Shown: positions 40,507-50,890, counted from the first letter of the stretch. The stretch: DNA of 64,000 bases from Acidilobaceae archaeon (GCA_038897215.1 JAWAWX010000001.1:352001-416000); one strand, 5' to 3'. Numbers and translations are program-made. The notes: a model not told the origin generated them from the sequence alone.

Positions 40507-42177
40507 TTGGGAATTTTTCGAAGACTAGTAGCCAAGAAGCTCAGCAGAGTGGTCATCGCCATACCTAAAGACGTTTACATGAGAGCACTAATTAGAATAG
40601 CCTCAGAGGGGCTACTCCATCTTGAGGAGCCCTCTCGCTCTCTCCCGGGAAAGCCGTCACCCCGCTTTAGAGAAGCGTTCACCAAGGCTTCTGAGAAGGT
40701 ATCGAAAGCACTCACCTACATGGAGGCTATTGGCTTAAAGCCTGAATTCAGGAAAGTCTCTATAGCGGTTAGGGGAGACTGCCTAGCAGCCTTTAGCAGA
40801 ACTCTCTCCGAGTACGAGAAGTACGAAGCGCGATTTGATGCTCTAGCTCAAGAAGTCTCTGCTCTAGGAGGAGCTCATGCCGTAGAGTCTTCTCAGCTAC
40901 CTAGAGGCATTGTAGAGAAGCTCTACGAGTACTACACTGTCATGTATGCTTTTAGAGAACTCTTCAGAATGCTAGCTCACGGAGTCGAATCCAGCACCTT
41001 CTTCTTCGTAGAAGGCTACGTTGACGACGAGGAGCTCCCGAAACTAACCAGGATCCTCGACGAGGAGACAGGCGGAGCTTACGCTATCGTGAGAATGAGG
41101 TGGGGTAGAGGGCACGTGGTCGAGGCTACTCCCGTCAAGCTAGAGCTACCTCCTATCATAAGCTCGTTCCACGAGATCACCAGAATGTATGGTGAGCCAC
41201 GACCGGGCGAGATTGTGCCCACGATTTTTCTAGCAGTAACGTTCCCCGTAGCTTTCGCTCTAATGTTCCCCGACGCTGGCCACGGCCTCGTTCTAGTGCT
41301 ACTAGGGCTACTGTTCTCTAGGAGGAGCAAGGTGTGGAGAGACATATTCGTAGTAGTAGGCTTGGCTGCCTTCATATCCGGGCTCCTAGCCGGAGAGTTC
41401 TTCGGGCCTCTAGGCGGGCACTTACTAGAGAAGCTCTTCGGCTGGATTAGCCCCATTCCTCCTCTAGCTCTCCCGACTTACGCTATAGAGAAGGGGCTTG
41501 GTAGCGAGGTCGTTTTCGACCTGCTTATTGGAGTCATAGTGAGAGGGCTGTGGTTCGGAGCATTCATGCTATCATTCGGCTCGCTGCTAGGCGTCTTAAA
41601 CGCCTGGCTCTCAGAGAGTATCTACGAGCTACTGGGCTTCAGGCTACCCAAGTTCCTCCTTTTCAGCTCCATAGCCTTAGCGGTCTTCACAGTCCCTCTA
41701 GCTCCTCACCTAGCTACGCTAGTCGTGGCGCTAGCAGCTGGGGGGGCTCTGGTCGCGATAGCCTGGCTCTTCTTCCTAGCTCCAGTCATCGGTGTTCTCT
41801 CTGGCCACGAGGTCGGAGAGTCGATAGTAGAGGGGGTCATGGAGGGCTTCGATACGATTATAATGGCTATGGGTAATCTGCCGAGCTTCTTGAGGATAGT
41901 AGCTCTAGCGCTAGCTCACTCAGTCATCATGCTCAGCTTCACGTTCATCTACCACACTCTAGCTGAGTTCGGGCTCTTTGGCAGCATAGCAGGCCTCATA
42001 CTCTACGTGGGCGGTAACGTGATAGCTTTAGCTATAGAGGGCATCATAGTCTTCGCTCATGCCATCAGGCTACACTTCTACGAGTGGTTCTCAAAGTTCT
42101 ACTACGGCGGAGGCCTCCCATTCACTCCCGTATCCACACCCCCAGTCTTCGCTATCGAGGAGAGCTCTCAAGACTAA
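40507..42177 (+). CDS. atpI: A/V-type ATP synthase subunit I (a)
   Basis: MYG.P...EI.PT, FP..FALMFPDAGHG, SFLRI.ALALAH (essential Arg), HAIRLHFYEWFSKFY. Confidence 0.9.
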   Translation: MGIFRRLVAKKLSRVVIAIPKDVYMRALIRIASEGLLHLEEPSRSLPGKPSPRFREAFTKASEKVSKALTYMEAIGLKPEFRKVSIAVRGDCLAAFSRTLSEYEKYEARFDALAQEVSALGGAHAVESSQLPRGIVEKLYEYYTVMYAFRELFRMLAHGVESSTFFFVEGYVDDEELPKLTRILDEETGGAYAIVRMRWGRGHVVEATPVKLELPPIISSFHEITRMYGEPRPGEIVPTIFLAVTFPVAFALMFPDAGHGLVLVLLGLLFSRRSKVWRDIFVVVGLAAFISGLLAGEFFGPLGGHLLEKLFGWISPIPPLALPTYAIEKGLGSEVVFDLLIGVIVRGLWFGAFMLSFGSLLGVLNAWLSESIYELLGFRLPKFLLFSSIALAVFTVPLAPHLATLVVALAAGGALVAIAWLFFLAPVIGVLSGHEVGESIVEGVMEGFDTIIMAMGNLPSFLRIVALALAHSVIMLSFTFIYHTLAEFGLFGSIAGLILYVGGNVIALAIEGIIVFAHAIRLHFYEWFSKFYYGGGLPFTPVSTPPVFAIEESSQD

Positions 42178-42275
42178 ATCTAGCCGTTTCTCCGCCAGCT
42201 CTAATCTACATCGCGAGAGCCGAGCGGCTCGCCAACCCTATAGCCTTCGAGAGATCTCGAGGCTGGGAGTCTGGG

Positions 42276-43508
42276 CTGGCGCGAGTAGACCCCAGGCTCT
42301 GCGTTCTGTGCAGAGGCAGAGGTCTCTGCGGGCTAGCGTACTGCCCCGCTCTAGCTAGGGCTCGAGCTCTCGTTAAGCTCGCTCCGCTCACCGAGACTAG
42401 AGTGGTGGAAGGCTCGAGCCCCCCATCGGTCTTCGTTGGCAGAGTCGGCTACCCTAGAGTGAGCGTGGGCCCCGCTACTCCACCCGAGGCTGGAGACACG
42501 CGGGTCTTCGACTACCCGGAGCTCTGGCTTGGGAGGAGGCTCGATGAGGTCATAGGATTCAGGCTGAGCCTAGTCTACGGGTCTAGCTTGGCTGACGTGG
42601 CTAAAGCCGGGGGGCTCGTCGAAGAGCTTAGGCTACTAGCGCTCAGCTCTAGGCCCGTAGACGTGGTGATGGTCTTGGCGAAGCCCCCCAAGCCCCGGGT
42701 AGGCTTGAGCGAGGAGCTGCCGCCGATGGGGCCCAGGTCTCCTCTAGAGAAGCTCGTCGTCAAGAGCAATCCCTCTGTCCCGAAGCCTCTCGAGAAGGCG
42801 TACTCGGACACAGACCTCAGAGCTACTGACGCTGTCTGGATGCTCTACAAAGAAGGAGTCCCCGTATCGCACATACAGAGAGTCTTCAGCGTTGGAGCAC
42901 TCGGGCTCGGGAGAGCTAGGAGGCTCGTGCCGACTAGGTGGAGCATAACAGCGGTAGACTCGATAGTCTCCGAGAAGCTGAAGGAGAGAGTCAGAGAGTA
43001 CAGCGAGGTCGATAAGATAGAGGTCTACATCCACAGAGGCTACGACAACCTCTTCCTAGCGATACTCTACCCGAGGAGGTGGAGCTTCGAGTGGATGGAG
43101 GCCTGGTGGCCTGGCTCCACGTGGAACCCGTTCGGAGGCGAGGTCGTAGTCGAGGGGGATTACGAACTCTACTCGGGGAGGAGAGACTACCCGGGCATCG
43201 GGGGGTGCTACTACGCCAGCATGCTCGCCGCTCTAGAGCACCTGGAGGAGAGGAGGAGGCAGGCCGCCGTGGTAATGCTGAGAGAGATATACCCGGGCTT
43301 CGATATACCGATAGGAGTCTGGTTCGTTAGAGAGATGGCTAGAGCCATGTTTAGAAGAGGCCCGGTTCTGAGAGCCGAGAGCTTGGACGAGGTGGCCGAG
43401 CTGGTCGATAGAGAGACGAGGCTGGGCTGGAGGCGGTGGCTTAGAGCATCGAGGCTCCTCAAGGCTCTGGCTTCAGAGAGGAGCCTAGATGACTATCTAC
43501 GAGGCTAG
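42276..43508 (+). CDS. nreA: Nre family DNA repair protein (CTG start inferred)
   Basis: N-terminal C..C.G.GLCG...CP; GSSPPSVFVGR.GYP; LVPTRWSITAVD; C-terminal PIP-like ERSLDDYL. Confidence 0.92.
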   Translation: MARVDPRLCVLCRGRGLCGLAYCPALARARALVKLAPLTETRVVEGSSPPSVFVGRVGYPRVSVGPATPPEAGDTRVFDYPELWLGRRLDEVIGFRLSLVYGSSLADVAKAGGLVEELRLLALSSRPVDVVMVLAKPPKPRVGLSEELPPMGPRSPLEKLVVKSNPSVPKPLEKAYSDTDLRATDAVWMLYKEGVPVSHIQRVFSVGALGLGRARRLVPTRWSITAVDSIVSEKLKERVREYSEVDKIEVYIHRGYDNLFLAILYPRRWSFEWMEAWWPGSTWNPFGGEVVVEGDYELYSGRRDYPGIGGCYYASMLAALEHLEERRRQAAVVMLREIYPGFDIPIGVWFVREMARAMFRRGPVLRAESLDEVAELVDRETRLGWRRWLRASRLLKALASERSLDDYLRG

Positions 43509-44319
43509 GAGACTCGGCAGGATAACAGTGCTAGTCGAGAGAGTAGAGAGAGCTCTAACTAGAACAGGGCTGCCAGACATAGACTATGCTCTCAACCCCT
43601 ACTCCGGTTGCTCTCACGGTTGCATCTACTGCTACGCTCGGCTCTACGTGAGTGATGCGAGAGTGAGAGAAAACTGGGGCTCGGTTGTTGCCGCTAGAGT
43701 GAACATTCATAGAGTGCTTGAGAGAGAGACTAGGAGACTCTCTCCGGGGCTCGTGGGGGTAGGGACTGTGACAGACCCCTACCAGCCCGTCGAGTCTCTA
43801 TTCAGGCTAACCAGGAGGAGCCTAGAGGTCCTCCTATCGAGAGGCTTCCGTGCCAGCATTCAGACAAAGAACCCTATGGTCTTGAGGGACCTCGATATCC
43901 TGGAGTCTAGGAGAGAGTTCGTAGACGTGGGCTTCACGATAACCACTCTGGATTGGAGTGTCTCCAAGACCATAGAGCCGCACGCTCCACCCCCTCTAGC
44001 TAGAGTGAGAGCTCTTGAAGAGCTCTCGCGGAGAGGTGTTGAGACGTGGGTTTTCTACGGCCCGGTGATACCCGGAGTGAACGACGACCCGGAGACCGCG
44101 AGGTCTATAGCCGAGGTCGCTGCCAGAACGGGGTCAGTGCTCTACGTAGACCCTCTCAGAGTCAAGCCGTTTATGCTGAGCGAGGAGCACCCATTGCGAG
44201 AAGCAGCGCTCAGAGCTAGGAGCAGGAAGTGGCTCAGAGAGCTACATGAGACAGTGGCTAGACTCTGTAGAGAGTACGGGCTGGAGTGTAGAGAGGGGTT
44301 TACAGCAAGCCCTCTCTAG
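43489..44319 (+). CDS. Spore-photoproduct-lyase-like radical SAM protein
   Basis: NPY.GC.HGC.YCYA, TDPYQP.E, QTK, EP.AP....R. Confidence 0.9.
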   Translation: MTIYEARRLGRITVLVERVERALTRTGLPDIDYALNPYSGCSHGCIYCYARLYVSDARVRENWGSVVAARVNIHRVLERETRRLSPGLVGVGTVTDPYQPVESLFRLTRRSLEVLLSRGFRASIQTKNPMVLRDLDILESRREFVDVGFTITTLDWSVSKTIEPHAPPPLARVRALEELSRRGVETWVFYGPVIPGVNDDPETARSIAEVAARTGSVLYVDPLRVKPFMLSEEHPLREAALRARSRKWLRELHETVARLCREYGLECREGFTASPL

Positions 44320-44324
44320 AAGCA

Positions 44325-44867
44325 TCAGCCGCCTCTCCTCAGGTACCAGCCTAAGTCGCGGATAGGCGTAGCCATCCTCTCCCCGCTCTTCTCGACTCCT
44401 CGAGCCCAGCCTAGAGGCTCTCCTCTAGCGTTCACGACGACCGCTACTCCTCTAGCCCACTCTACTAGATGGCGTTCTCTGAGAGTTCTCCCGTAGAGGA
44501 ACCTCTTCTCTCCGGCCTCGTTGACCACTATGCACTTCACTCTCTCGCCGCAGAGCTCTGAGAGCCTCCTGGCTAGAGGGAGGCCTGGCTTGAACCTGCC
44601 TTTCTCAACGTAGCCTAGGTAGAGCCCGGCTGCGTAGTGTGAGGGAAGGAGCTCGAGGACTTCTAGAGCCCACTCTGGGACGTCGAAGAGCTCCACGTAC
44701 CTAGCTCCGGGGACCTCTAGAGCCATCGGGTTAGCCGCTACCTCCTCGAGAGATAAACCCATGCTTGAGAGGAATCTCTCGAGAGCTCTCCGCTCCCCGC
44801 TCTTCAAGCGCCTCAAGCGAGGCCCGCGCGCTCTCTGAGCAGAGGGCTCTGCTGCCTGAGGGGTCAC
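44325..44867 (-). CDS. NIP7-like/PUA-domain protein coupled to the m5C methyltransferase
   Basis: GLYLG...GRFKPGL, GEKRFLYG, DLGWYLRRGG; GTGA overlap. Confidence 0.75.
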   Translation of the reverse strand: MTPQAAEPSAQRARGPRLRRLKSGERRALERFLSSMGLSLEEVAANPMALEVPGARYVELFDVPEWALEVLELLPSHYAAGLYLGYVEKGRFKPGLPLARRLSELCGERVKCIVVNEAGEKRFLYGRTLRERHLVEWARGVAVVVNARGEPLGWARGVEKSGERMATPIRDLGWYLRRGG

Positions 44868-45859
44868 CGCCTCTCCCTGGCTAGCATGCAGACAAAGAAG
44901 CCCTCGTAGCCCTGGATGTGAGGCCATAGCCTCCCGCAGTGAGCGAGCCGTGGGTCTAGCTCCACGCCCCTGTAGCTAGTCACTCCTCTAGAGAGCACTG
45001 GGTGCTCTAGCCTGACTACTGTCGCGTCACTGCGGGATTCTAGGACCTTGTGCACGACGTACTCTCCCTCTTCTACAGCAGTGGAGCACGCAGCGTAGAG
45101 CACCACGCCTCCTTCTCTCAGTAGTCTGAGTGCTTTCTCGAGTAGCCTCACTTGTAGCTCGTGCATTCTCCTGATGTCCTCAAGCCTCCCTCTCTTCTTC
45201 CTGCTCGGGTCCTTCCTGATGACTCCCTCTCCCGAGCTGGGAGCATCGAGAAGTATCCTGTCTGCTTTGAGTTCCTCGGGGAGGCTTAGAGCATCTGCTC
45301 TCACGAGCACGAAGCTCTTGAACCCCATTCTCTGAAGGTGAGACCTGAGGCTCCTCATCCTGAGTCTAGACTTCTCGACTGCTATCAGTCTAGCCTTGTC
45401 TCTGGTGAGTTGCAGTATCTGAGTCGCCTTGCCCCCAGGGGCTGCGCACATATCGATGATTAGTTCTCCAGGCTTGGGGTCTAGGAGGTAGCCTGCTAGC
45501 ATAGAGCCTGGGTCCTGGACGTAGTAGTAGCCGAGGAGGTACTCGTGTGTAGCCCCTACGCTGATAGGAGCGGAGGAGACCTCGTAGCCGTGGGGGAGCC
45601 ACTCGATCCTCCTCAGCTCGAAGCCCTTGGCTTCGAGTCTCGCCTCTAGCTCTGAGCAGTCTACCAGGTAGTCGTTGCACCTGATCGTCTCAGGGAGGGG
45701 CTTCTCGTTAGCCTCGAGGACTCTCTCGGCTTCGCTCACTCCTACCGCCTCCACTAGCCTGTAGACTATGCTGGGCTCGTATCCGTACCTTTGGGAGAGC
45801 TCTAGCACCTCTCTCGTGAACTCGTAGGGAGCGAATACTCTGGAGTCGAGACCGCTCAC
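44864..45859 (-). CDS. RsmB/NOP2 family RNA m5C methyltransferase
   Basis: GYYYVQD..S, DMCAAPGGK, LDAPSSGEG, YAACS...EE.E, WPH...EGFF. Confidence 0.92.
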   Translation of the reverse strand: MSGLDSRVFAPYEFTREVLELSQRYGYEPSIVYRLVEAVGVSEAERVLEANEKPLPETIRCNDYLVDCSELEARLEAKGFELRRIEWLPHGYEVSSAPISVGATHEYLLGYYYVQDPGSMLAGYLLDPKPGELIIDMCAAPGGKATQILQLTRDKARLIAVEKSRLRMRSLRSHLQRMGFKSFVLVRADALSLPEELKADRILLDAPSSGEGVIRKDPSRKKRGRLEDIRRMHELQVRLLEKALRLLREGGVVLYAACSTAVEEGEYVVHKVLESRSDATVVRLEHPVLSRGVTSYRGVELDPRLAHCGRLWPHIQGYEGFFVCMLARERR

Positions 45860-47047: not shown

Positions 47048-50000
47048 TTGGAGGCTCTGATAGCCGCGGTCGTCTTAGCGGGCTCAGCGAGCCTGCTACG
47101 GGAAGCGCTCTCTGCTCTAGTAGCGTCTAGACTGGCTAGTGTCAGGGAGCCGGGAGCCGTCTCTCTCGCTAAGTCCAGGCTAGTGAGGCTTGCCTCGAGC
47201 TCGCTGAGCATCGAGGCCGCGGTAGCCGGGGCTCTAGCCGAGAGAGGGCTCTTCGGAGAGCTGGCTGAAGCGTGCTCCCACACCGAGGGGCTCCACGCTC
47301 TCTGCTCGGTCGCAAGGTCGGGAGCGGCTGTCGTAGCCGTAGACTTCGAGGAGTGGCCGGGCTCCTGCGGTGTCTCTATCCTCTCCCGGGAGAGAGCTCT
47401 CGCCTCCATCGAGCTCTCTCCCTGCTCTCCTGCTATTCTAGCGAGTGAGATGAAGCCGGGAGCCGTCGTAGCCTACGACTGGAGGAGAGCTCCTCGAGAG
47501 CTCGCGAGCCACGCTAGAGCCCGCGGGCTCAGGCTACTCAGCCTTCTCGACCTAGCTCCTCTGGCTCTCCCGGGGGAGCCAAGCTACTCTCTCAGCAGGC
47601 TCGCCTTCATCCTCGGCCTGGACTACGATGAATCCCCCCGGGGGAGGGCTAGAGCTGTTCTCCTCTCGTCTCTGAGGCTAGCTGGGGCTCTCTCAGCTCT
47701 AGGGCTCTGCTGGAGGCTAGCCGGTAGCGAGCCCTGGCTGGAGGGCCTCGCTACTCTCTGCGACTACGCTGAGGCAGAGGCTCCGGCTAGGAGAGCGGGG
47801 CCCGTGGCGCTCTCTGGGGCCGATGTTGTCGTGACGCCGCGCCTCCTCGACTCCTGCTCTCCTCTACACTGGACTCCCCGGAAGCTGGCGAGAGGCTCAA
47901 GCGAGCTCTCTGGAGCTCTAGGAGCTCTATTTAGGGTAGCTGGAGCCCGCGGGGTCTGTAGCGAGAGAGAAGTGCTCGAGTCTATCAGAGCGTCTCCGGC
48001 TATGAGCGAGAGCCTCTCGCTACCGGATACTGTCTGGGAGGAGGGGGGGCTCTCGCTCCCTCTGGTGGCTCACTGCAGAGACGCTCTAGCGCTGGCAGAG
48101 CTCTTGGAGAAGAGGGGAGCCAAGCTCGGGCTCGTCTTCGTCGAGGCTGCTCACGCCTGCGTTGCGCTAGCCGGAGTGGGGGTCGCGGAGCTCCTCTCTG
48201 CTCTCTCGAGAGTCTCTAGGAGGCTGTGGGTTAGCGTCGCTGACGCTAGCGATGTGCCTCACTACGCTGAGCTAGCTGGCTTTAGAGAGGCCCCCGTCTA
48301 CGTGGTGAAAGGAGCGGGAGACCTGAGCTCTCTCGAGACGAGGAGGGTCTTCGAGCTCGCCTACTCGCTAGCAGACTCAGGCTCCTGCGTTCTGGCAACG
48401 ACCCCCGCGTCTAGGCTCTCGAGTCTAGAGCTCGGCCTGAGAGTAGTGGAGAGACTGGAGGACGCTGCGGAGTGCTCTAGAGTCGTTGTGCCCACAGTGA
48501 GCGACCTCAGAGAGCTCGCCTCGAGACACGGAGTGAGCTTAAAGCACGCTCTAGTAGCGTTGCTAGAGCTCACTCAAGACCGGCTCGTCGTGGTCAGCGG
48601 TTGGAGAGAGCTCTCTCAGCACGCGAGTCTCAGAGAGCTCGAAGTCGAGCCAGCGGGGCTCGGGCTGGCTGTTGCGCCAGCGCTCTTCTCGAGCCCCCGG
48701 AAGGCTCTAGCTGAGGTGGAAAGAGCCGCTAGAGAGAAGTGGGGTCTGGAGCTTCGCCCGTACCAGAAGAGGATAGCTTTGTACATGCTGGAGCCCTACG
48801 TGAGAGGCCGCGGCTACGAGAAGCCCACTGTCATAGCCCTTCTGCCTACGGGAGCAGGCAAGTCGCTCGTATTCCAGAGCGTCTCCGTAGCGCTCCATAG
48901 AGCCTCAGGGAGGCCCGCGCTCGTGGTGTCGCCTCTCCTGGCTCTCATAGAGGACCAGATCGAGGGGCTGGAGAGAGCCGGTGTGAGAGTGTGCAGGCTG
49001 GACGGCATGGCTGAGCCCGCTGAGAGACTGGAGTGCTTGAGGAGAGCCGCTGGGGGGGAGGTTGAGATAGTCTACTCGACCCCGGAGCAGGTGGAGAAGA
49101 GTGAGGCTAGGAGGCTAGTCGAGAGCGGCTTCTTCAGCCTCATAGTCTTAGACGAGGCTCACTGCGCTATACGCTGGGGCTACACGTTCAGGCCTGCTTA
49201 CGCTCACGCTCTCTCATTCATCAAGAGAGTGAGAGACGAGAAGCCGTGGCTCCCCGTAGCCGCGTTCACTGCTACCCTCTCGGAGAGCGAGTTGAGGAAG
49301 CTTGCTGAAGAGCTGGGAGTAGGAGAGTTCGAGGTCGTAGAGGGGAGGGAGGCGCTCGAGGAGCCCGTGGCTCTAAGCGGGAGACCCAAGGTCGTCAAGA
49401 GCGCTGTCTTGAGGAGCAACCTGAGGCTGAGAGCTGTCAGAGCCCCTCCTTCGGCTAAGCTGAGAGCTCTAGTCGAGATAGTCTCGGAGCTGAGAGAGTG
49501 GGCTGAGGAGAGCGGAGGAGAGCCCTGGATAGGCCTAGTCTTCGTGCCCTATGTGAGCCCTTCGAGAGAAGAGGAGAGCGCTGAGAGCATAGCGAGACTC
49601 CTCGAGAGAGAGCTGGAAGAGGAAGTCTTAGTGTACCACGGGCAGATGCCGAAGAGAGAGAGGAGTAGAGCCCTTGATGCTCTGAGGTCTGTTGCTCGCG
49701 GGGAGAGGAGCTCTCCGAGGATCGTTGTGGCGACCAAGGCTTTCGGGATGGGGGTAGACATACCTTGCATAAGATGGGTAGTCCACTACATGATGAGCGA
49801 GAGCGTGGAGGACTACTACCAGGAAGTTGGGAGAGCTGGGAGAGACGGGAGAGAAGCAGTCTGCATCCTGATCCACTCGGGTAGAAGCGATTTCAAGAAG
49901 AGGCTCTCGCTGAGCCGGAGGCAACACCCAAGGCTCAAGGTAGTCGAGGCTCTCTGGGCGCTCGCTATGAGAGCAGTCGAGAAGACAGGCTCTAGGAGAG

Positions 50001-50890
50001 TCGCCTTCAGGCTCTCGAGGCTGAGAGAGGAGCTAGAGAGAGCTCTAGGAGCTAGAGTCAGCGAGGAGGAGCTAGAGAAGTCTCTACACGTGCTCTCGCT
50101 AGCCGAGCTGGCTGATTACGAGGTAGCCACGGGGGTCGCTCGAGAGTGCCGAGACGGCTACGTGCTAGCCGATGACTCGAAGAAGAGAGTCTGCCTAACG
50201 GACTCTCCGGGCTCCTCGGGAGAGCTCGACAGATACTGCCTCCTAGAGGTGAGGGCGGAGAGGGGGGAGGAGAGAGCTCTCGCTAGAGTTCTGAGAGAGG
50301 TGAAGCACGAGACCCTGATGAAGCTAGTAGCGTCCTTCAGACTGGCTGAGCTCTTGGCTAGAGAGGGGGAGGAGAGGGGGAGAGAAGCGATCCTATCATA
50401 CTTCAGGATCACTGGAGGCGAGCGCGGAGAGGACGTAGCTGAGGATATGAGGAGAGAGGTCGACAAGCTGGCTCTAGCTCGAGGAGTGCACGTGAAGAGA
50501 GTAGACTCGAGGAGATACGTGGCGGAGACGCTATCGAAGCCCGCGCGCCACACCGTGGCTAAAGCTCTAGCCTACGCTATCGTAGCCTCTCTCCTAGACT
50601 CCAGAACACCGCCTAGTGACGCCGTGGTCTATACTGAGAGAGGGCTCGCTCGCCTAGTCTCGAAGCACGTGAGAGCAGTAGCTAGAGAGCTCGAGAAGAG
50701 AGGCTACATGTACCCGGACAGAGTAGAGGTCAGAGCTCTCAACGCCGGGAAGCTCGCGGAAGAGCCAAGACTCGGCAAGACAGTGATACTAGCTCTAGCT
50801 AGGAAACCCGAGGCTCTCCCAGCTGGAGGAGACTACATAGAGATAACGCTTGCCCTAAAGCACTCCAGAGAAGAGGATAAACTACGCTAG
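47048..50890 (+). CDS. Large RecQ-family helicase with long N- and C-terminal extensions
   Basis: LPTGAGKSLVFQ, VSPLLALIEDQ, TPE, DEAHCAIRWGYTFRP.Y, FTAT, YHG.M, ATKAFGMGVD, YYQEVGRAGRDG. Confidence 0.9.
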   Translation: MEALIAAVVLAGSASLLREALSALVASRLASVREPGAVSLAKSRLVRLASSSLSIEAAVAGALAERGLFGELAEACSHTEGLHALCSVARSGAAVVAVDFEEWPGSCGVSILSRERALASIELSPCSPAILASEMKPGAVVAYDWRRAPRELASHARARGLRLLSLLDLAPLALPGEPSYSLSRLAFILGLDYDESPRGRARAVLLSSLRLAGALSALGLCWRLAGSEPWLEGLATLCDYAEAEAPARRAGPVALSGADVVVTPRLLDSCSPLHWTPRKLARGSSELSGALGALFRVAGARGVCSEREVLESIRASPAMSESLSLPDTVWEEGGLSLPLVAHCRDALALAELLEKRGAKLGLVFVEAAHACVALAGVGVAELLSALSRVSRRLWVSVADASDVPHYAELAGFREAPVYVVKGAGDLSSLETRRVFELAYSLADSGSCVLATTPASRLSSLELGLRVVERLEDAAECSRVVVPTVSDLRELASRHGVSLKHALVALLELTQDRLVVVSGWRELSQHASLRELEVEPAGLGLAVAPALFSSPRKALAEVERAAREKWGLELRPYQKRIALYMLEPYVRGRGYEKPTVIALLPTGAGKSLVFQSVSVALHRASGRPALVVSPLLALIEDQIEGLERAGVRVCRLDGMAEPAERLECLRRAAGGEVEIVYSTPEQVEKSEARRLVESGFFSLIVLDEAHCAIRWGYTFRPAYAHALSFIKRVRDEKPWLPVAAFTATLSESELRKLAEELGVGEFEVVEGREALEEPVALSGRPKVVKSAVLRSNLRLRAVRAPPSAKLRALVEIVSELREWAEESGGEPWIGLVFVPYVSPSREEESAESIARLLERELEEEVLVYHGQMPKRERSRALDALRSVARGERSSPRIVVATKAFGMGVDIPCIRWVVHYMMSESVEDYYQEVGRAGRDGREAVCILIHSGRSDFKKRLSLSRRQHPRLKVVEALWALAMRAVEKTGSRRVAFRLSRLREELERALGARVSEEELEKSLHVLSLAELADYEVATGVARECRDGYVLADDSKKRVCLTDSPGSSGELDRYCLLEVRAERGEERALARVLREVKHETLMKLVASFRLAELLAREGEERGREAILSYFRITGGERGEDVAEDMRREVDKLALARGVHVKRVDSRRYVAETLSKPARHTVAKALAYAIVASLLDSRTPPSDAVVYTERGLARLVSKHVRAVARELEKRGYMYPDRVEVRALNAGKLAEEPRLGKTVILALARKPEALPAGGDYIEITLALKHSREEDKLR

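What the first reader, a model, noticed from the sequence alone, without database searches (positions are those of the whole stretch)
47048..50890. Giant archaeal RecQ with fossil exonuclease-like and DinG-like modules
Seen in sequence: an intact RecQ core at about 48750-49880, including the RecQ-specific aromatic loop DEAHCAIRWGYTFRP. About 550 aa precede it. These contain VAVDFEE (~47333) and LLDLAPLALPGEPSYSLSRLAFILGL (~47543), which resemble DnaQ/DEDDh ExoI and the 'DTL.la...p..sy.L..la..lg' segment but lack the downstream acidic/His residues. ADVVVTP and VFVEAAH (~48134) resemble a decayed DinG/XPD Walker-B region. The C-terminal PPSDAVVYT..L..V...LEKRG looks like a decayed SF1/UvrD C-terminal lobe. 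Established: true RecQ is rare in archaea (Hel308 and reverse gyrase are typical), and exonuclease-RecQ fusion is the WRN architecture. Inference: a laterally acquired multi-helicase chimera in which only RecQ stays active, ameliorated to host codon usage, lying near nreA and the SPL-like gene.
Basis: partly seen in the sequence, partly recalled or inferred. Interest (0 to 1): 0.75.

Follow-up and report, generated by a model that had tools for sequence, protein, structure and literature searches.

The report
Giant RecQ-like helicase, dead exonuclease
This intact 1280-residue archaeal gene joins a working RecQ-like DNA helicase to three burnt-out modules (a dead 3'-5' exonuclease, a motif-less helicase-like module and a degenerate ATPase-like domain), and belongs to a rare, undescribed family whose other members keep the exonuclease, as in the human Werner protein.

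Summary
ORF 47048-50890 (+) is intact, 1280 aa.

- **Helicase core.** aa 561-950 carry every RecQ-type helicase motif.
- **Family.** The flanks have no Pfam hits. The whole protein still aligns with a rare archaeal family of 1140-1590-aa proteins (Pyrodictium, Desulfurococcales and Thermoproteota MAGs, Ca. Methanodesulfokora, Archaeoglobales).
- **Exonuclease.** The relatives examined keep all five DEDDh residues, and 14 of 23 hit Pfam RNase_T. This gene and its same-genus orthologue keep only D99 and E101. The ExoII Asp is Pro, the ExoIII His is Glu, and the ExoIII Asp is Arg.
- **Other modules.** AlphaFold models (pLDDT about 86) show a two-lobed helicase-like module without Walker motifs (aa 255-545). 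They also show a winged helix (960-1075) and a RecA/P-loop-like domain (1133-1273). That last domain has real Walker A/B motifs only in Archaeoglobales relatives.

Specific DinG or UvrD ancestry is not shown. Lateral acquisition is unresolved (AU p = 0.095; GC3 like the neighbours).

A diverged sister form is universal in Acidilobaceae. No paper describing either form was found. The scan holds only this same stretch, read twice.

The parts
47048..50890 (+). Whole gene: 1280 aa, TTG start, stop included. A stand-alone gene between a divergent Fe-ADH_2 gene and an ABC peptide-transporter operon.
   Evidence: The orthologue in the sister species (L032/L057, 1288 aa) has the same neighbours.
47054..47110 (+). 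Weak N-terminal hydrophobic helix (aa 3-21). It is a remnant of the membrane anchor seen in relatives.
   Evidence: The best 19-residue Kyte-Doolittle mean is 1.72 here and 1.51 in the orthologue. It is 2.4-3.4 in 9 of the 10 other Thermoproteota- and Methanodesulfokora-type members.
47309..47752 (+). Dead DEDDh (RNase T/DnaQ-type) exonuclease domain, about aa 88-235. The ExoI residues D99 and E101 are kept (47342-47350). The ExoII Asp is P149 (47492-47494), the ExoIII His is E195 (47630-47632) and the ExoIII Asp is R200 (47645-47647). It also carries a roughly 15-residue deletion.
   Evidence: Alignments and residue table. Pfam RNase_T in relatives at the aligned place. HMM of relatives against this protein, E 1e-24. 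BLAST of the N-terminus to P0004, E 8.5e-30.
47810..48682 (+). Pseudo-helicase module, about aa 255-545: two alpha/beta RecA-like lobes without Walker A or DExx motifs. It holds the family motifs DVVVTP...W.P (aa 259-280) and the strand LGLVFV-E366.
   Evidence: AF2 model mfcd187b2f684, pLDDT 85.7. Foldseek and VIA hits are all helicases: nsp13 Z 9.1, DinG 6fws Z 8.8 with 283 aligned, and DbpA RecA2 Z 8.7 on lobe 2. The profile search finds only this family.
48728..49897 (+). RecQ-like SF2 helicase core (aa 561-950): motif 0 (LRPYQ), motif I (PTGAGKS), Ia, II plus the aromatic loop (DEAHCAIRWGYTFRP, 49151-49195), III (FTATL), V, and VI (YYQEVGRAGRDG).
   Evidence: This part is 74% identical to the sister-species orthologue, against 47-49% for the flanks.
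49925..50272 (+). Winged-helix domain with a long beta-hairpin wing (aa 960-1075).
   Evidence: AF2 model mbb10f71a4de0, pLDDT 86.9. VIA: CRP/FNR winged helix Z 9.6 (rmsd 2.0, 68 aligned); ORC/Cdc6 winged helix Z 8.2-8.8.
50444..50866 (+). Degenerate RecA/P-loop-like domain (aa 1133-1273), preceded by long helices. It contains PPSDAVVYT (50609-50635).
   Evidence: VIA: SLFN14 helicase Z 7.5, Kre33 Z 7.4, Brr2 Z 7.2, UvrD Z 6.3. The aligned domain of the Archaeoglobales relatives has Walker A (G-S-G-K-T) and Walker B (I-I-x-D-D). Six of the 23 scanned family members hit Pfam AAA_22; the summary gives neither which members nor where in the protein.

Best explanation
The gene encodes a large, single-chain DNA helicase. 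Its only catalytic part is a RecQ-like, presumably 3'-5', ATP-driven motor (aa 561-950).

It is a member of a rare archaeal family with this order of parts:
1. N-terminal membrane anchor
2. DEDDh 3'-5' exonuclease
3. two-lobed pseudo-helicase module
4. RecQ-like helicase
5. winged helix with a long hairpin
6. P-loop-type domain

In members with all parts intact, the helicase would unwind DNA and hand the 3' end to the exonuclease in the same chain. That is the logic of the Werner protein, reached independently.

In this genus the exonuclease has lost three of its five metal- and water-binding residues, and the anchor helix has weakened. The C-terminal P-loop is gone here, as it is in the other non-Archaeoglobales members. 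The dead modules are still kept under selection as folded DNA-binding or scaffolding parts. The protein therefore acts as a helicase only, most likely in recombination, repair or fork processing.

Shown: the homology, the domain order, the residue losses and the folds. Inferred: polarity, substrate, cellular role, and the function of the dead modules.
For: - The ORF is intact and all helicase motifs are present.
- The protein is collinear with the family over its full length: 35% identity over residues 10-1322 of P0004, E 4e-183. The N-terminus matches at E 8.5e-30 and the C-terminus at E 5.7e-16. An independent HMM gives E 1e-24.
- Relatives have RNase_T hits (14 of 23) and an invariant D-E-D-H-D set. 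The query has D, E, P, E, R.
- The models are confident, with helicase-like, winged-helix and RecA-like folds.
- Walker A/B motifs occur in the aligned C-terminal domain of the Archaeoglobales relatives only.
- Between the two species of the genus there are no stops. dN is 0.47 in the exonuclease and middle parts, against dS above 2 (saturated); the core has dN 0.18.
- The locus is the same in both species.
Against: - No biochemical data exist for any member, and no paper on the family was found.
- The fold matches of the middle and C-terminal domains have middling Z scores (7-9), a range the tool warns is common.
- dS is saturated, so the selection estimate is rough.
- D99 and E101 survive, so residual metal binding or an altered activity is not excluded.
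- The core scores at least as well on DpdF and PsyrT defence-helicase models (222 and 177 bits) as on RecQ. A repair role is therefore not the only reading.
Confidence: 0.75

Rival explanations
1. One reading: the gene was acquired laterally by this Acidilobaceae lineage as a ready-made multi-helicase chimera and was then ameliorated to the host's composition.
For: On the core tree the gene and its orthologue sit inside the exonuclease-bearing clade (SH-aLRT 90), next to sequences from Pyrodictium and Desulfurococcales MAGs. All other Acidilobaceae giants, plus this genome's own 824-aa paralogue, form a separate clade (98). The full-length type was found in only 2 of about 388 other Thermoproteota genomes sampled, and in roughly a dozen records of the best 80 kept from a scan of 185,579 species.
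Against: The AU test does not reject grouping it with the Acidilobaceae clade (p 0.095). GC3 is 0.67, the same as the neighbours at 0.62-0.70. The locus is shared with the sister species at saturated dS. The two clades are homologous along the N-terminus too (hhalign probability 96.5%). An old duplication followed by differential loss explains the data equally well.
Confidence: 0.3
2. It is a defence or mobile-element helicase (DpdF- or PsyrT-like, or Cas3-like) rather than a housekeeping repair enzyme.
For: PADLOC DpdF models give the highest core scores (222 bits), PsyrT gives 177 bits and a putative alternative Cas3 gives 127 bits. The distribution of the full-length type is patchy. Nuclease-helicase fusions are common in defence systems (general knowledge).
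Against: NCBIfam DpdF scores 159 bits against a cut-off of 550. The window has no dpd, toxin-antitoxin or cas neighbours; the flanks are housekeeping genes. No neighbour gene is shared by three or more of 11 loci of the family. The sister clade is present in 24 of 24 and 12 of 12 sampled Acidilobaceae genomes, which is core-gene behaviour. A dead nuclease is odd for an effector.
Confidence: 0.12
3. The flanking regions are decaying, functionless sequence. The gene is on its way to becoming a short helicase, like the 820-900-aa forms in the same family.
For: The catalytic residues and the membrane anchor are lost. The flanks evolve about 2.5-3 times faster than the core (dN 0.47-0.54 against 0.18). 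Short forms lacking the N-terminal half exist, including one in this same genome. Other first-reader notes (untested here) report several lost catalytic residues in this 1.16-Mb genome.
Against: About 890 flanking codons stay open in two species that differ at more than half of those positions. dN is far below saturated dS. AF2 folds the flanks confidently (pLDDT 86-87). Family motifs such as W.P and G..VE are retained.
Confidence: 0.1

Closest known systems
Werner syndrome protein WRN (3'-5' exonuclease fused to a RecQ helicase)
   Same: The domain logic matches in the intact relatives: an N-terminal 3'-5' exonuclease of the DnaQ-like superfamily sits upstream of a RecQ-type motor, followed by a winged helix. 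The WRN helicase domain is among the best solved matches to the core (E about 1e-28).
   Different: The relatives' exonuclease matches the DEDDh RNase_T family PF00929, and no hit to PF01612 was listed. By general knowledge WRN's exonuclease is the DEDDy type, so the fusion is probably independent. Here the exonuclease is dead. About 300 aa of pseudo-helicase lie between the exonuclease and the motor. No zinc-binding, RQC or HRDC Pfam domain is detected. There are also an extra C-terminal P-loop-like domain and an N-terminal membrane anchor in relatives.
Bacterial RecQ (E. coli, D. radiodurans; TIGR01389 / TIGR00614)
   Same: Motifs 0 and I-VI and the aromatic-rich loop after DEAH are shared. 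These are the best solved-structure matches (4q47 E 2.6e-35, 1oyw E 7e-34).
   Different: The protein scores below the curated cut-offs (194.6 against 640; 169.1 against 219.8). Only model positions 30-333 of 591 match. It has no Cys4 zinc subdomain and no HRDC. It is twice as long.
Exonuclease-bearing DinG of Gram-positive bacteria (DEDDh exonuclease plus a Rad3/XPD-type helicase)
   Same: The N-terminal half has the same order: a DEDDh exonuclease followed by a two-lobed SF2-like module. DinG structures give the widest structural coverage of the middle module: 6fws Z 8.8 with 283 of 336 aligned, and S. aureus DinG 9ii8 Z 6.5 with 270 aligned.
   Different: No Walker A or DEAH is seen in the consensus or invariant columns of the module in the aligned members. 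No sequence link exists outside the family. DEAD-box, nsp13 and Brr2 helicases tie within 1 Z. The architecture of Gram-positive DinG is recalled from general knowledge and was not tested here.
DpdF / PsyrT RecQ-like helicases of bacterial defence and toxin-antitoxin systems
   Same: The helicase core scores as high on these models as on RecQ (PADLOC DpdF 222 bits, PsyrT 177 bits).
   Different: The NCBIfam DpdF cut-off is not reached (159 against 550). No partner genes are present. The flanking domains are unrelated.
Giant RecQ-like helicases of other Acidilobaceae (Aeropyrum, Acidilobus, Caldisphaera, Thermodiscus; annotated 'DEAD/DEAH box helicase')
   Same: They have the same size (1270-1460 aa) with the helicase in the middle, and the core is 37-42% identical. 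The N-terminal profiles are homologous over part of the exonuclease, the linker and the first lobe (hhalign probability 96.5%, E 7.6e-10). The exonuclease motifs are also lost, and some carry an N-terminal hydrophobic helix.
   Different: They form a separate clade on the core tree. Their flanks are not detectable by BLAST from this protein. This genome's representative of that clade is the 824-aa paralogue elsewhere on the chromosome.

Membership tests
RecQ helicase family (canonical) | SF2 motifs I, Ia, II (DEAH), III, V and VI, plus motif 0 | tested here: met
   All can be read in the sequence and align to D. radiodurans RecQ. Pfam DEAD and Helicase_C match.
RecQ helicase family (canonical) | Aromatic-rich loop directly after motif II | tested here: met
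   DEAHCAIRWGYTFRPAY aligns with DEAHCVSQWGHDFRPEY of 4q47.
RecQ helicase family (canonical) | Score above the curated family cut-off (TIGR00614 recQ_fam; TIGR01389 recQ) | tested here: not met
   169.1 bits against 219.8, and 194.6 bits against 640.2. Only the first 333 of 591 model positions match.
RecQ helicase family (canonical) | Zinc-binding subdomain and RQC winged helix after the motor | tested here: inconclusive
   No RecQ_Zn_bind or RQC Pfam hit at E up to 1, and no Cys cluster can be read in aa 940-1000. A winged helix is predicted at 960-1075 (Z 9.6 to CRP-type winged helices). RecQ winged helices are not among the rows listed.
RecQ helicase family (canonical) | HRDC domain (present in many members, not all) | tested here: not met
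   No Pfam HRDC hit.
DEDDh 3'-5' exonuclease (RNase_T / DnaQ-like, PF00929) | Domain homology | tested here: met
   The link is indirect but strong. The region aligns collinearly with relatives whose aligned part hits PF00929 (14 of 23; 26-29 bits against a cut-off of 24 in five of them). The query alone has no Pfam hit. Its fold was not predicted.
DEDDh 3'-5' exonuclease (RNase_T / DnaQ-like, PF00929) | The five catalytic residues D, E, D, H, D | tested here: not met
   The query has D99, E101, P149, E195 and R200, and the orthologue has the same pattern. The 11 other loci in the table keep all five, as do the 26 relatives aligned.
WRN-type exonuclease-RecQ fusion | Exonuclease of the DEDDy / DNA_pol_A_exo1 type (PF01612) fused upstream of RecQ | tested here: not met
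   The relatives match RNase_T (DEDDh), with His in ExoIII, and not PF01612. The fusion order is the same, but the domain family differs and the domain here is inactive.
DinG / XPD (Rad3-like) helicase, for aa 255-545 | Two RecA-like lobes | tested here: met
   All 50 top rows of the pdb_via re-alignment are two-lobed helicases, and nearly all 50 of the pdb_via_wide scan are helicases or other RecA-like proteins. DinG 6fws scores Z 8.8 (rmsd 6.1, 283 aligned) and XPD Z 7.7. These are middling Z scores.
DinG / XPD (Rad3-like) helicase, for aa 255-545 | Walker A, DEAH, and family-specific sequence kinship | tested here: not met
   No GKT or DEAH appears in the consensus or invariant columns of this module in the aligned members. 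The profile search of 1.84 billion representatives returns 15 proteins: 11 of 1141-1477 aa with the module at the family's position, and four shorter pieces.
DinG / XPD (Rad3-like) helicase, for aa 255-545 | FeS-cluster and Arch insertions | not tested
   These were not examined. The module is only about 290 aa long, which leaves no room for them (inference).
P-loop NTPase (AAA_22-like), for aa 1133-1273 | Walker A and Walker B | tested here: not met
   They are present in the aligned domain of Archaeoglobales relatives P0033, P0034 and P0036. They are absent in the query and in all Thermoproteota-type members.
P-loop NTPase (AAA_22-like), for aa 1133-1273 | RecA/P-loop-like fold | tested here: inconclusive
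   SLFN14 Z 7.5 (109 aligned), Kre33 Z 7.4 (123 aligned), UvrD Z 6.3 (121 aligned). Foldseek gives Dna2 probability 0.90. The Z scores are middling.
DpdF (7-deazaguanine DNA modification system) | Curated HMM cut-off and dpd gene neighbourhood | tested here: not met
   NF041063 scores 159.3 bits against 550. The neighbours are Fe-ADH_2, RsmB-like, PUA, radical SAM, Nre and ABC-transporter genes.

The most novel reading that the evidence does not exclude
The family is an independently evolved archaeal counterpart of WRN. It is a single-chain, membrane-tethered machine of 3'-5' exonuclease, pseudo-helicase, RecQ-like helicase and ATPase that works on DNA at the cell envelope, for example on imported, exchanged or invading DNA in hyperthermophiles. 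Acidilobaceae have silenced its nuclease twice, once in the family-wide giant form and once in this genus, turning it into a pure helicase or scaffold. The window's gene would be a natural separation-of-function allele of that machine.
Probability: 0.2. Interest if true: 0.75.

Novelty: new variant of a known kind. Interest (0 to 1): 0.55.

Why it matters
RecQ-type helicases are thought to be marginal in archaea. The so-called RecQ-like Hel112 of Sulfolobus is in fact an Lhr helicase (PMC8301817).

Here a RecQ-like motor is embedded in a roughly 1300-aa multi-domain protein. That protein is universal in one crenarchaeal family and scattered in other hyperthermophiles.

- Intact members give a prokaryotic, probably convergent, exonuclease-RecQ fusion. 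This is a tractable thermostable model for how a helicase and a 3'-5' exonuclease cooperate in one chain.
- The window's protein, with the other Acidilobaceae forms, is a natural nuclease-dead version. It shows that the helicase and the scaffold are what selection keeps.
- Two further pseudo-ATPase modules and an N-terminal membrane anchor have, as far as I know, no counterpart in characterised RecQ-family helicases. They hint at an undescribed mode of regulation or localisation.

In practice, current annotations ("DEAD/DEAH box helicase", "helicase-related protein") miss all of this.

Tried and rejected
- **Flanks against other Acidilobaceae giants.** BLAST of the N- and C-terminal flanks found nothing beyond the same-genus orthologue. 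hhalign with a 2-sequence profile was weak (probability 7.7% and 45.7%). Only the 26-sequence profile showed N-terminal homology.
- **First word-indexed search of aa 1-560.** It returned only the protein itself and its orthologue. This was a sensitivity limit, not evidence of orphan status.
- **Synteny.** The window's neighbours recur only in the sister species.
- **Conserved neighbours around 11 full-length-type loci.** None was shared by three or more loci.
- **Profile search with the middle module.** Only the family itself came back, so no sequence evidence points to a DinG/XPD or any other ancestor.
- **ESM Atlas on aa 60-250.** The nearest clusters are unnamed. RNase_H-superfamily clusters appear only at 0.85, which is a lead and not evidence.
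- **UvrD-specific and DinG-specific readings.** Both are among the structural hits, but each ties with many other RecA-like proteins.
- **Composition test for recent transfer.** GC3 does not differ from the neighbours. The higher total GC of the N-terminal half comes from its amino-acid make-up.
- **Literature.** Three searches found no description of the family.
- **dN/dS.** dS is saturated, so only a rough bound is available.
- **Promoter.** No clear TATA-like box was seen by eye upstream of the TTG start. This was not pursued.

Full report
**1. The observation**

The window has one uninterrupted ORF at 47048-50890 on the + strand: 1280 codons, starting with TTG.

Pfam recognises only the two halves of an SF2 helicase, DEAD at aa 592-750 and Helicase_C at aa 830-934. 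NCBIfam ranks RecQ first (194.6 bits), then recQ_fam (169.1 bits) and DpdF (159.3 bits), and all three are below their curated cut-offs. The best solved relatives are bacterial RecQ (4q47, E 2.6e-35; 1oyw), followed by RECQ1, RECQ5, RECQ4 and WRN.

Motif 0, motifs I, Ia, II, III, V and VI, and the aromatic loop after DEAH are all intact. About 560 residues before the core and 330 after it have no Pfam match.

**2. What the flanks are**

A word-indexed search with aa 1-560 found only the protein itself and a 47%-identical protein from an Acidilobaceae MAG. The helicase core gave a different picture. It retrieved many archaeal proteins of about 1300-1600 aa, and several of them carry Pfam RNase_T (PF00929) upstream of the helicase.

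These proteins align with the query from end to end:
- The N-terminus (aa 52-555) matches P0004 at E 8.5e-30, and the C-terminus at E 5.7e-16.
- The whole protein is 35% identical to P0004 over its residues 10-1322.
- An HMM of 26 relatives' N-termini, built without this genus, scores the query at E 1e-24.

In the alignment all 26 relatives have the DEDDh set: D-x-E, then G-H-N-x4-D, then H-x3-E-D. In a second alignment of 11 other loci all five catalytic residues are kept, and only the non-catalytic ExoII Asn is Gly in one of them. Fourteen of 23 scanned members match RNase_T, and three match a polymerase-exonuclease model.

The query keeps D99 and E101 of ExoI. It has P149 in place of the ExoII Asp, E195 in place of the ExoIII His, and R200 in place of the ExoIII Asp. 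It also carries a roughly 15-residue deletion. The sister-species orthologue shows the same pattern.

**3. The middle module (aa 255-545)**

In relatives they read roughly v-v-v-t-P...S-C...W-x-P-r-K and G-x-x-V-E-x-x-Y-L.

An AlphaFold2 model of aa 235-570, built with 28 aligned sequences, has pLDDT 85.7 and pTM 0.80. It shows two alpha/beta lobes.

- Foldseek's best matches are all two-lobed helicases: Lhr, XPD/Rad3, CRISPR-associated DinG and DbpA, with E about 1e-3 and low TM scores.
- The independent aligner gives nsp13 Z 9.1, DinG 6fws Z 8.8 (283 of 336 residues aligned, the widest coverage) and Dbp5 Z 8.3.
- For the second lobe alone it gives the DbpA RecA2 domain at Z 8.7 (rmsd 3.1, 110 aligned).

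In the model the strand LGLVFV ends in E366, which is Walker-B-like geometry. No Walker A or DExx motif is seen in the consensus or invariant columns of the aligned members.

A profile of this module was run against 1.84 billion representative proteins. It returned 15 proteins: 11 of 1141-1477 aa carrying the module at the family's position, and four shorter pieces.

The module is helicase-like in fold and motif-less. A specific DinG/XPD origin remains only a possibility.

**4. The C-terminal third**

The model of aa 951-1280 has pLDDT 86.9. It has three parts:
- **aa 960-1075:** a winged helix with a long beta-hairpin. It matches CRP/FNR-type winged helices at Z 9.6 (rmsd 2.0) and ORC/Cdc6 winged helices at Z 8.2-8.8.
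- **Long helices** follow the winged helix.
- **aa 1133-1273:** an alpha/beta domain that matches RecA/P-loop domains of helicases. SLFN14 scores Z 7.5, Kre33 7.4, Brr2 7.2 and UvrD 6.3, and Foldseek gives Dna2 probability 0.90.

In the family alignment, the three Archaeoglobales-type relatives have a true Walker A (G-S-G-K-T) and Walker B (I-I-x-D-D) in exactly this domain. The query and all Thermoproteota-type members lack both. Six of the 23 scanned members hit Pfam AAA_22, but that summary does not say which members or where in the protein.

UvrD is only one of many weak structural matches.

**5. Distribution and history**

The genome is a 1.16-Mb single contig of an Acidilobaceae archaeon.

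All 24 sampled genomes of the family gave a strong core match (E about 1e-55 or better), except one 55%-complete genome whose best match was E 1.4e-5. Most of these ORFs are 1270-1460 aa, and a few are 820-1020 aa or cut by a contig end. The core is 35-43% identical. Their flanks are not found by BLAST.

Profile comparison still shows that their N-termini are homologous to the exonuclease-bearing family, from the ExoII region through the first lobe (hhalign probability 96.5%, E 7.6e-10). The aligned ExoIII His and Asp are missing there too.

On a tree of the core:
- The query and its orthologue fall inside the exonuclease-bearing clade (SH-aLRT 90).
- The other Acidilobaceae giants, together with short forms of 820-900 aa, form a separate clade (98).
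- That second clade includes this genome's own second copy, at about 702 kb on the chromosome.
- Forcing the query into the second clade costs 13.5 log-likelihood units, with AU p = 0.095.

The full-length type is rare:
- In a phylum-wide sample, strong matches outside Acidilobaceae were found in 2 of about 388 genomes.
- A scan of one genome per species kept its best 80 loci, and roughly a dozen of those records carry the type. They come from Pyrodictium, Desulfurococcales, several Thermoproteota MAGs, two copies in Ca. Methanodesulfokora washburnensis, and Archaeoglobales.

GC3 of the gene is 0.67, like its neighbours. The locus is the same in the sister species. Transfer and ancient paralogy with differential loss both fit these data.

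**6. Is the dead part still used?**

Between the two species of the genus there are no stops or frameshifts. Amino-acid identity is 74% in the core and 43-53% in the flanks. dN is 0.47 in the exonuclease and middle modules, 0.54 in the C-terminal domain and 0.18 in the core. Synonymous sites are saturated, with dS above 2. The flanks also fold confidently. This argues for retained structural roles and against free decay.

**7. Context and other features**

The gene stands alone. A Fe-ADH_2 gene lies divergently upstream, and an ABC peptide-transporter operon lies downstream. An Nre gene and a radical-SAM gene lie 3-5 kb upstream. No neighbour is shared among 11 loci of the family.

Nine of the ten other non-Archaeoglobales members have a strongly hydrophobic N-terminal helix (19-residue hydropathy 2.4-3.4), as do several Acidilobaceae giants. 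In the query it is weakened to 1.72.

PADLOC's DpdF and PsyrT models score the core as well as RecQ does. That places it in the broad RecQ/DpdF/PsyrT group but does not by itself argue for defence.

**8. Mechanism proposed**

In intact members, a 3'-5' RecQ-like motor and a 3'-5' DEDDh exonuclease in one chain suggest coupled unwinding and degradation of a 3' end, as in WRN. The winged-helix hairpin is a candidate strand-separation pin, and the pseudo-helicase is a candidate passive ssDNA-binding module. These steps are inferences.

In this genus only the motor is catalytic, so the protein should act as a helicase or translocase. Its cellular role (repair, recombination, fork restart, or handling of foreign DNA) is not shown.

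**9. Novelty**

Three literature searches found no description of the family. The "RecQ-like" Hel112 of Sulfolobus is an Lhr helicase (PMC8301817).

Database names for members are generic: "DEAD/DEAH box helicase", "helicase-related protein", "ATP-dependent DNA helicase RecQ".

I rate it a new variant of a known kind. It is a RecQ-like helicase in a WRN-like but independent fusion, with two extra pseudo-ATPase modules, and it is nuclease-dead in this genus.

Noticed in passing
L027:2865-5339 (own genome, chromosome about 702 kb; outside the window): A second RecQ-like gene of 824 aa lies in the same genome. It lacks the long N-terminal half and groups with the Acidilobaceae giant clade on the core tree. 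This genus therefore carries one representative of each clade.
   Followed up: partly
L049, L050, L053-L056, L058-L060 (first 20-60 codons of the family gene): Most non-Archaeoglobales relatives, and several Acidilobaceae giants (L014, L015, L020, L021, L025, L026), begin with a strongly hydrophobic helix followed by Arg/Lys. This suggests a membrane-anchored helicase-nuclease, which I believe is unusual for RecQ-type enzymes.
   Followed up: partly
P0033, P0034, P0036; L061, L062 (Archaeoglobales-type members): This variant has no N-terminal hydrophobic helix. It has a different, longer N-terminus, an intact Walker A/B domain at the C-terminus and roughly 150-200 extra C-terminal residues.
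   Followed up: partly
L054 and L060: Candidatus Methanodesulfokora washburnensis carries two full-length copies of the exonuclease-bearing gene on different contigs.
   Followed up: no
window 42084-44319 (+): An archaeal Nre gene (Nre_N and Nre_C, E 5e-103) overlaps by 20 bases a radical-SAM gene that has a faint DUF1848 resemblance. This is probably a two-gene DNA-repair operon. No link to the helicase gene was seen in other genomes.
   Followed up: no
window 44325-45859 (-): An RsmB/F-type methyltransferase gene overlaps by 64 bases a downstream gene for a PUA-domain protein (UPF0113). An earlier first-reader note says the methyltransferase lacks its motif IV cysteine. That claim was not checked here.
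   Followed up: no
P0004 about aa 1080-1115, equivalent to window about 50100-50200: In the wing of the winged helix, the Pyrodictium-type relatives have four cysteines in a C-x4-C ... C-x3-C pattern. These could bind a metal. The query keeps only some of them.
   Followed up: no
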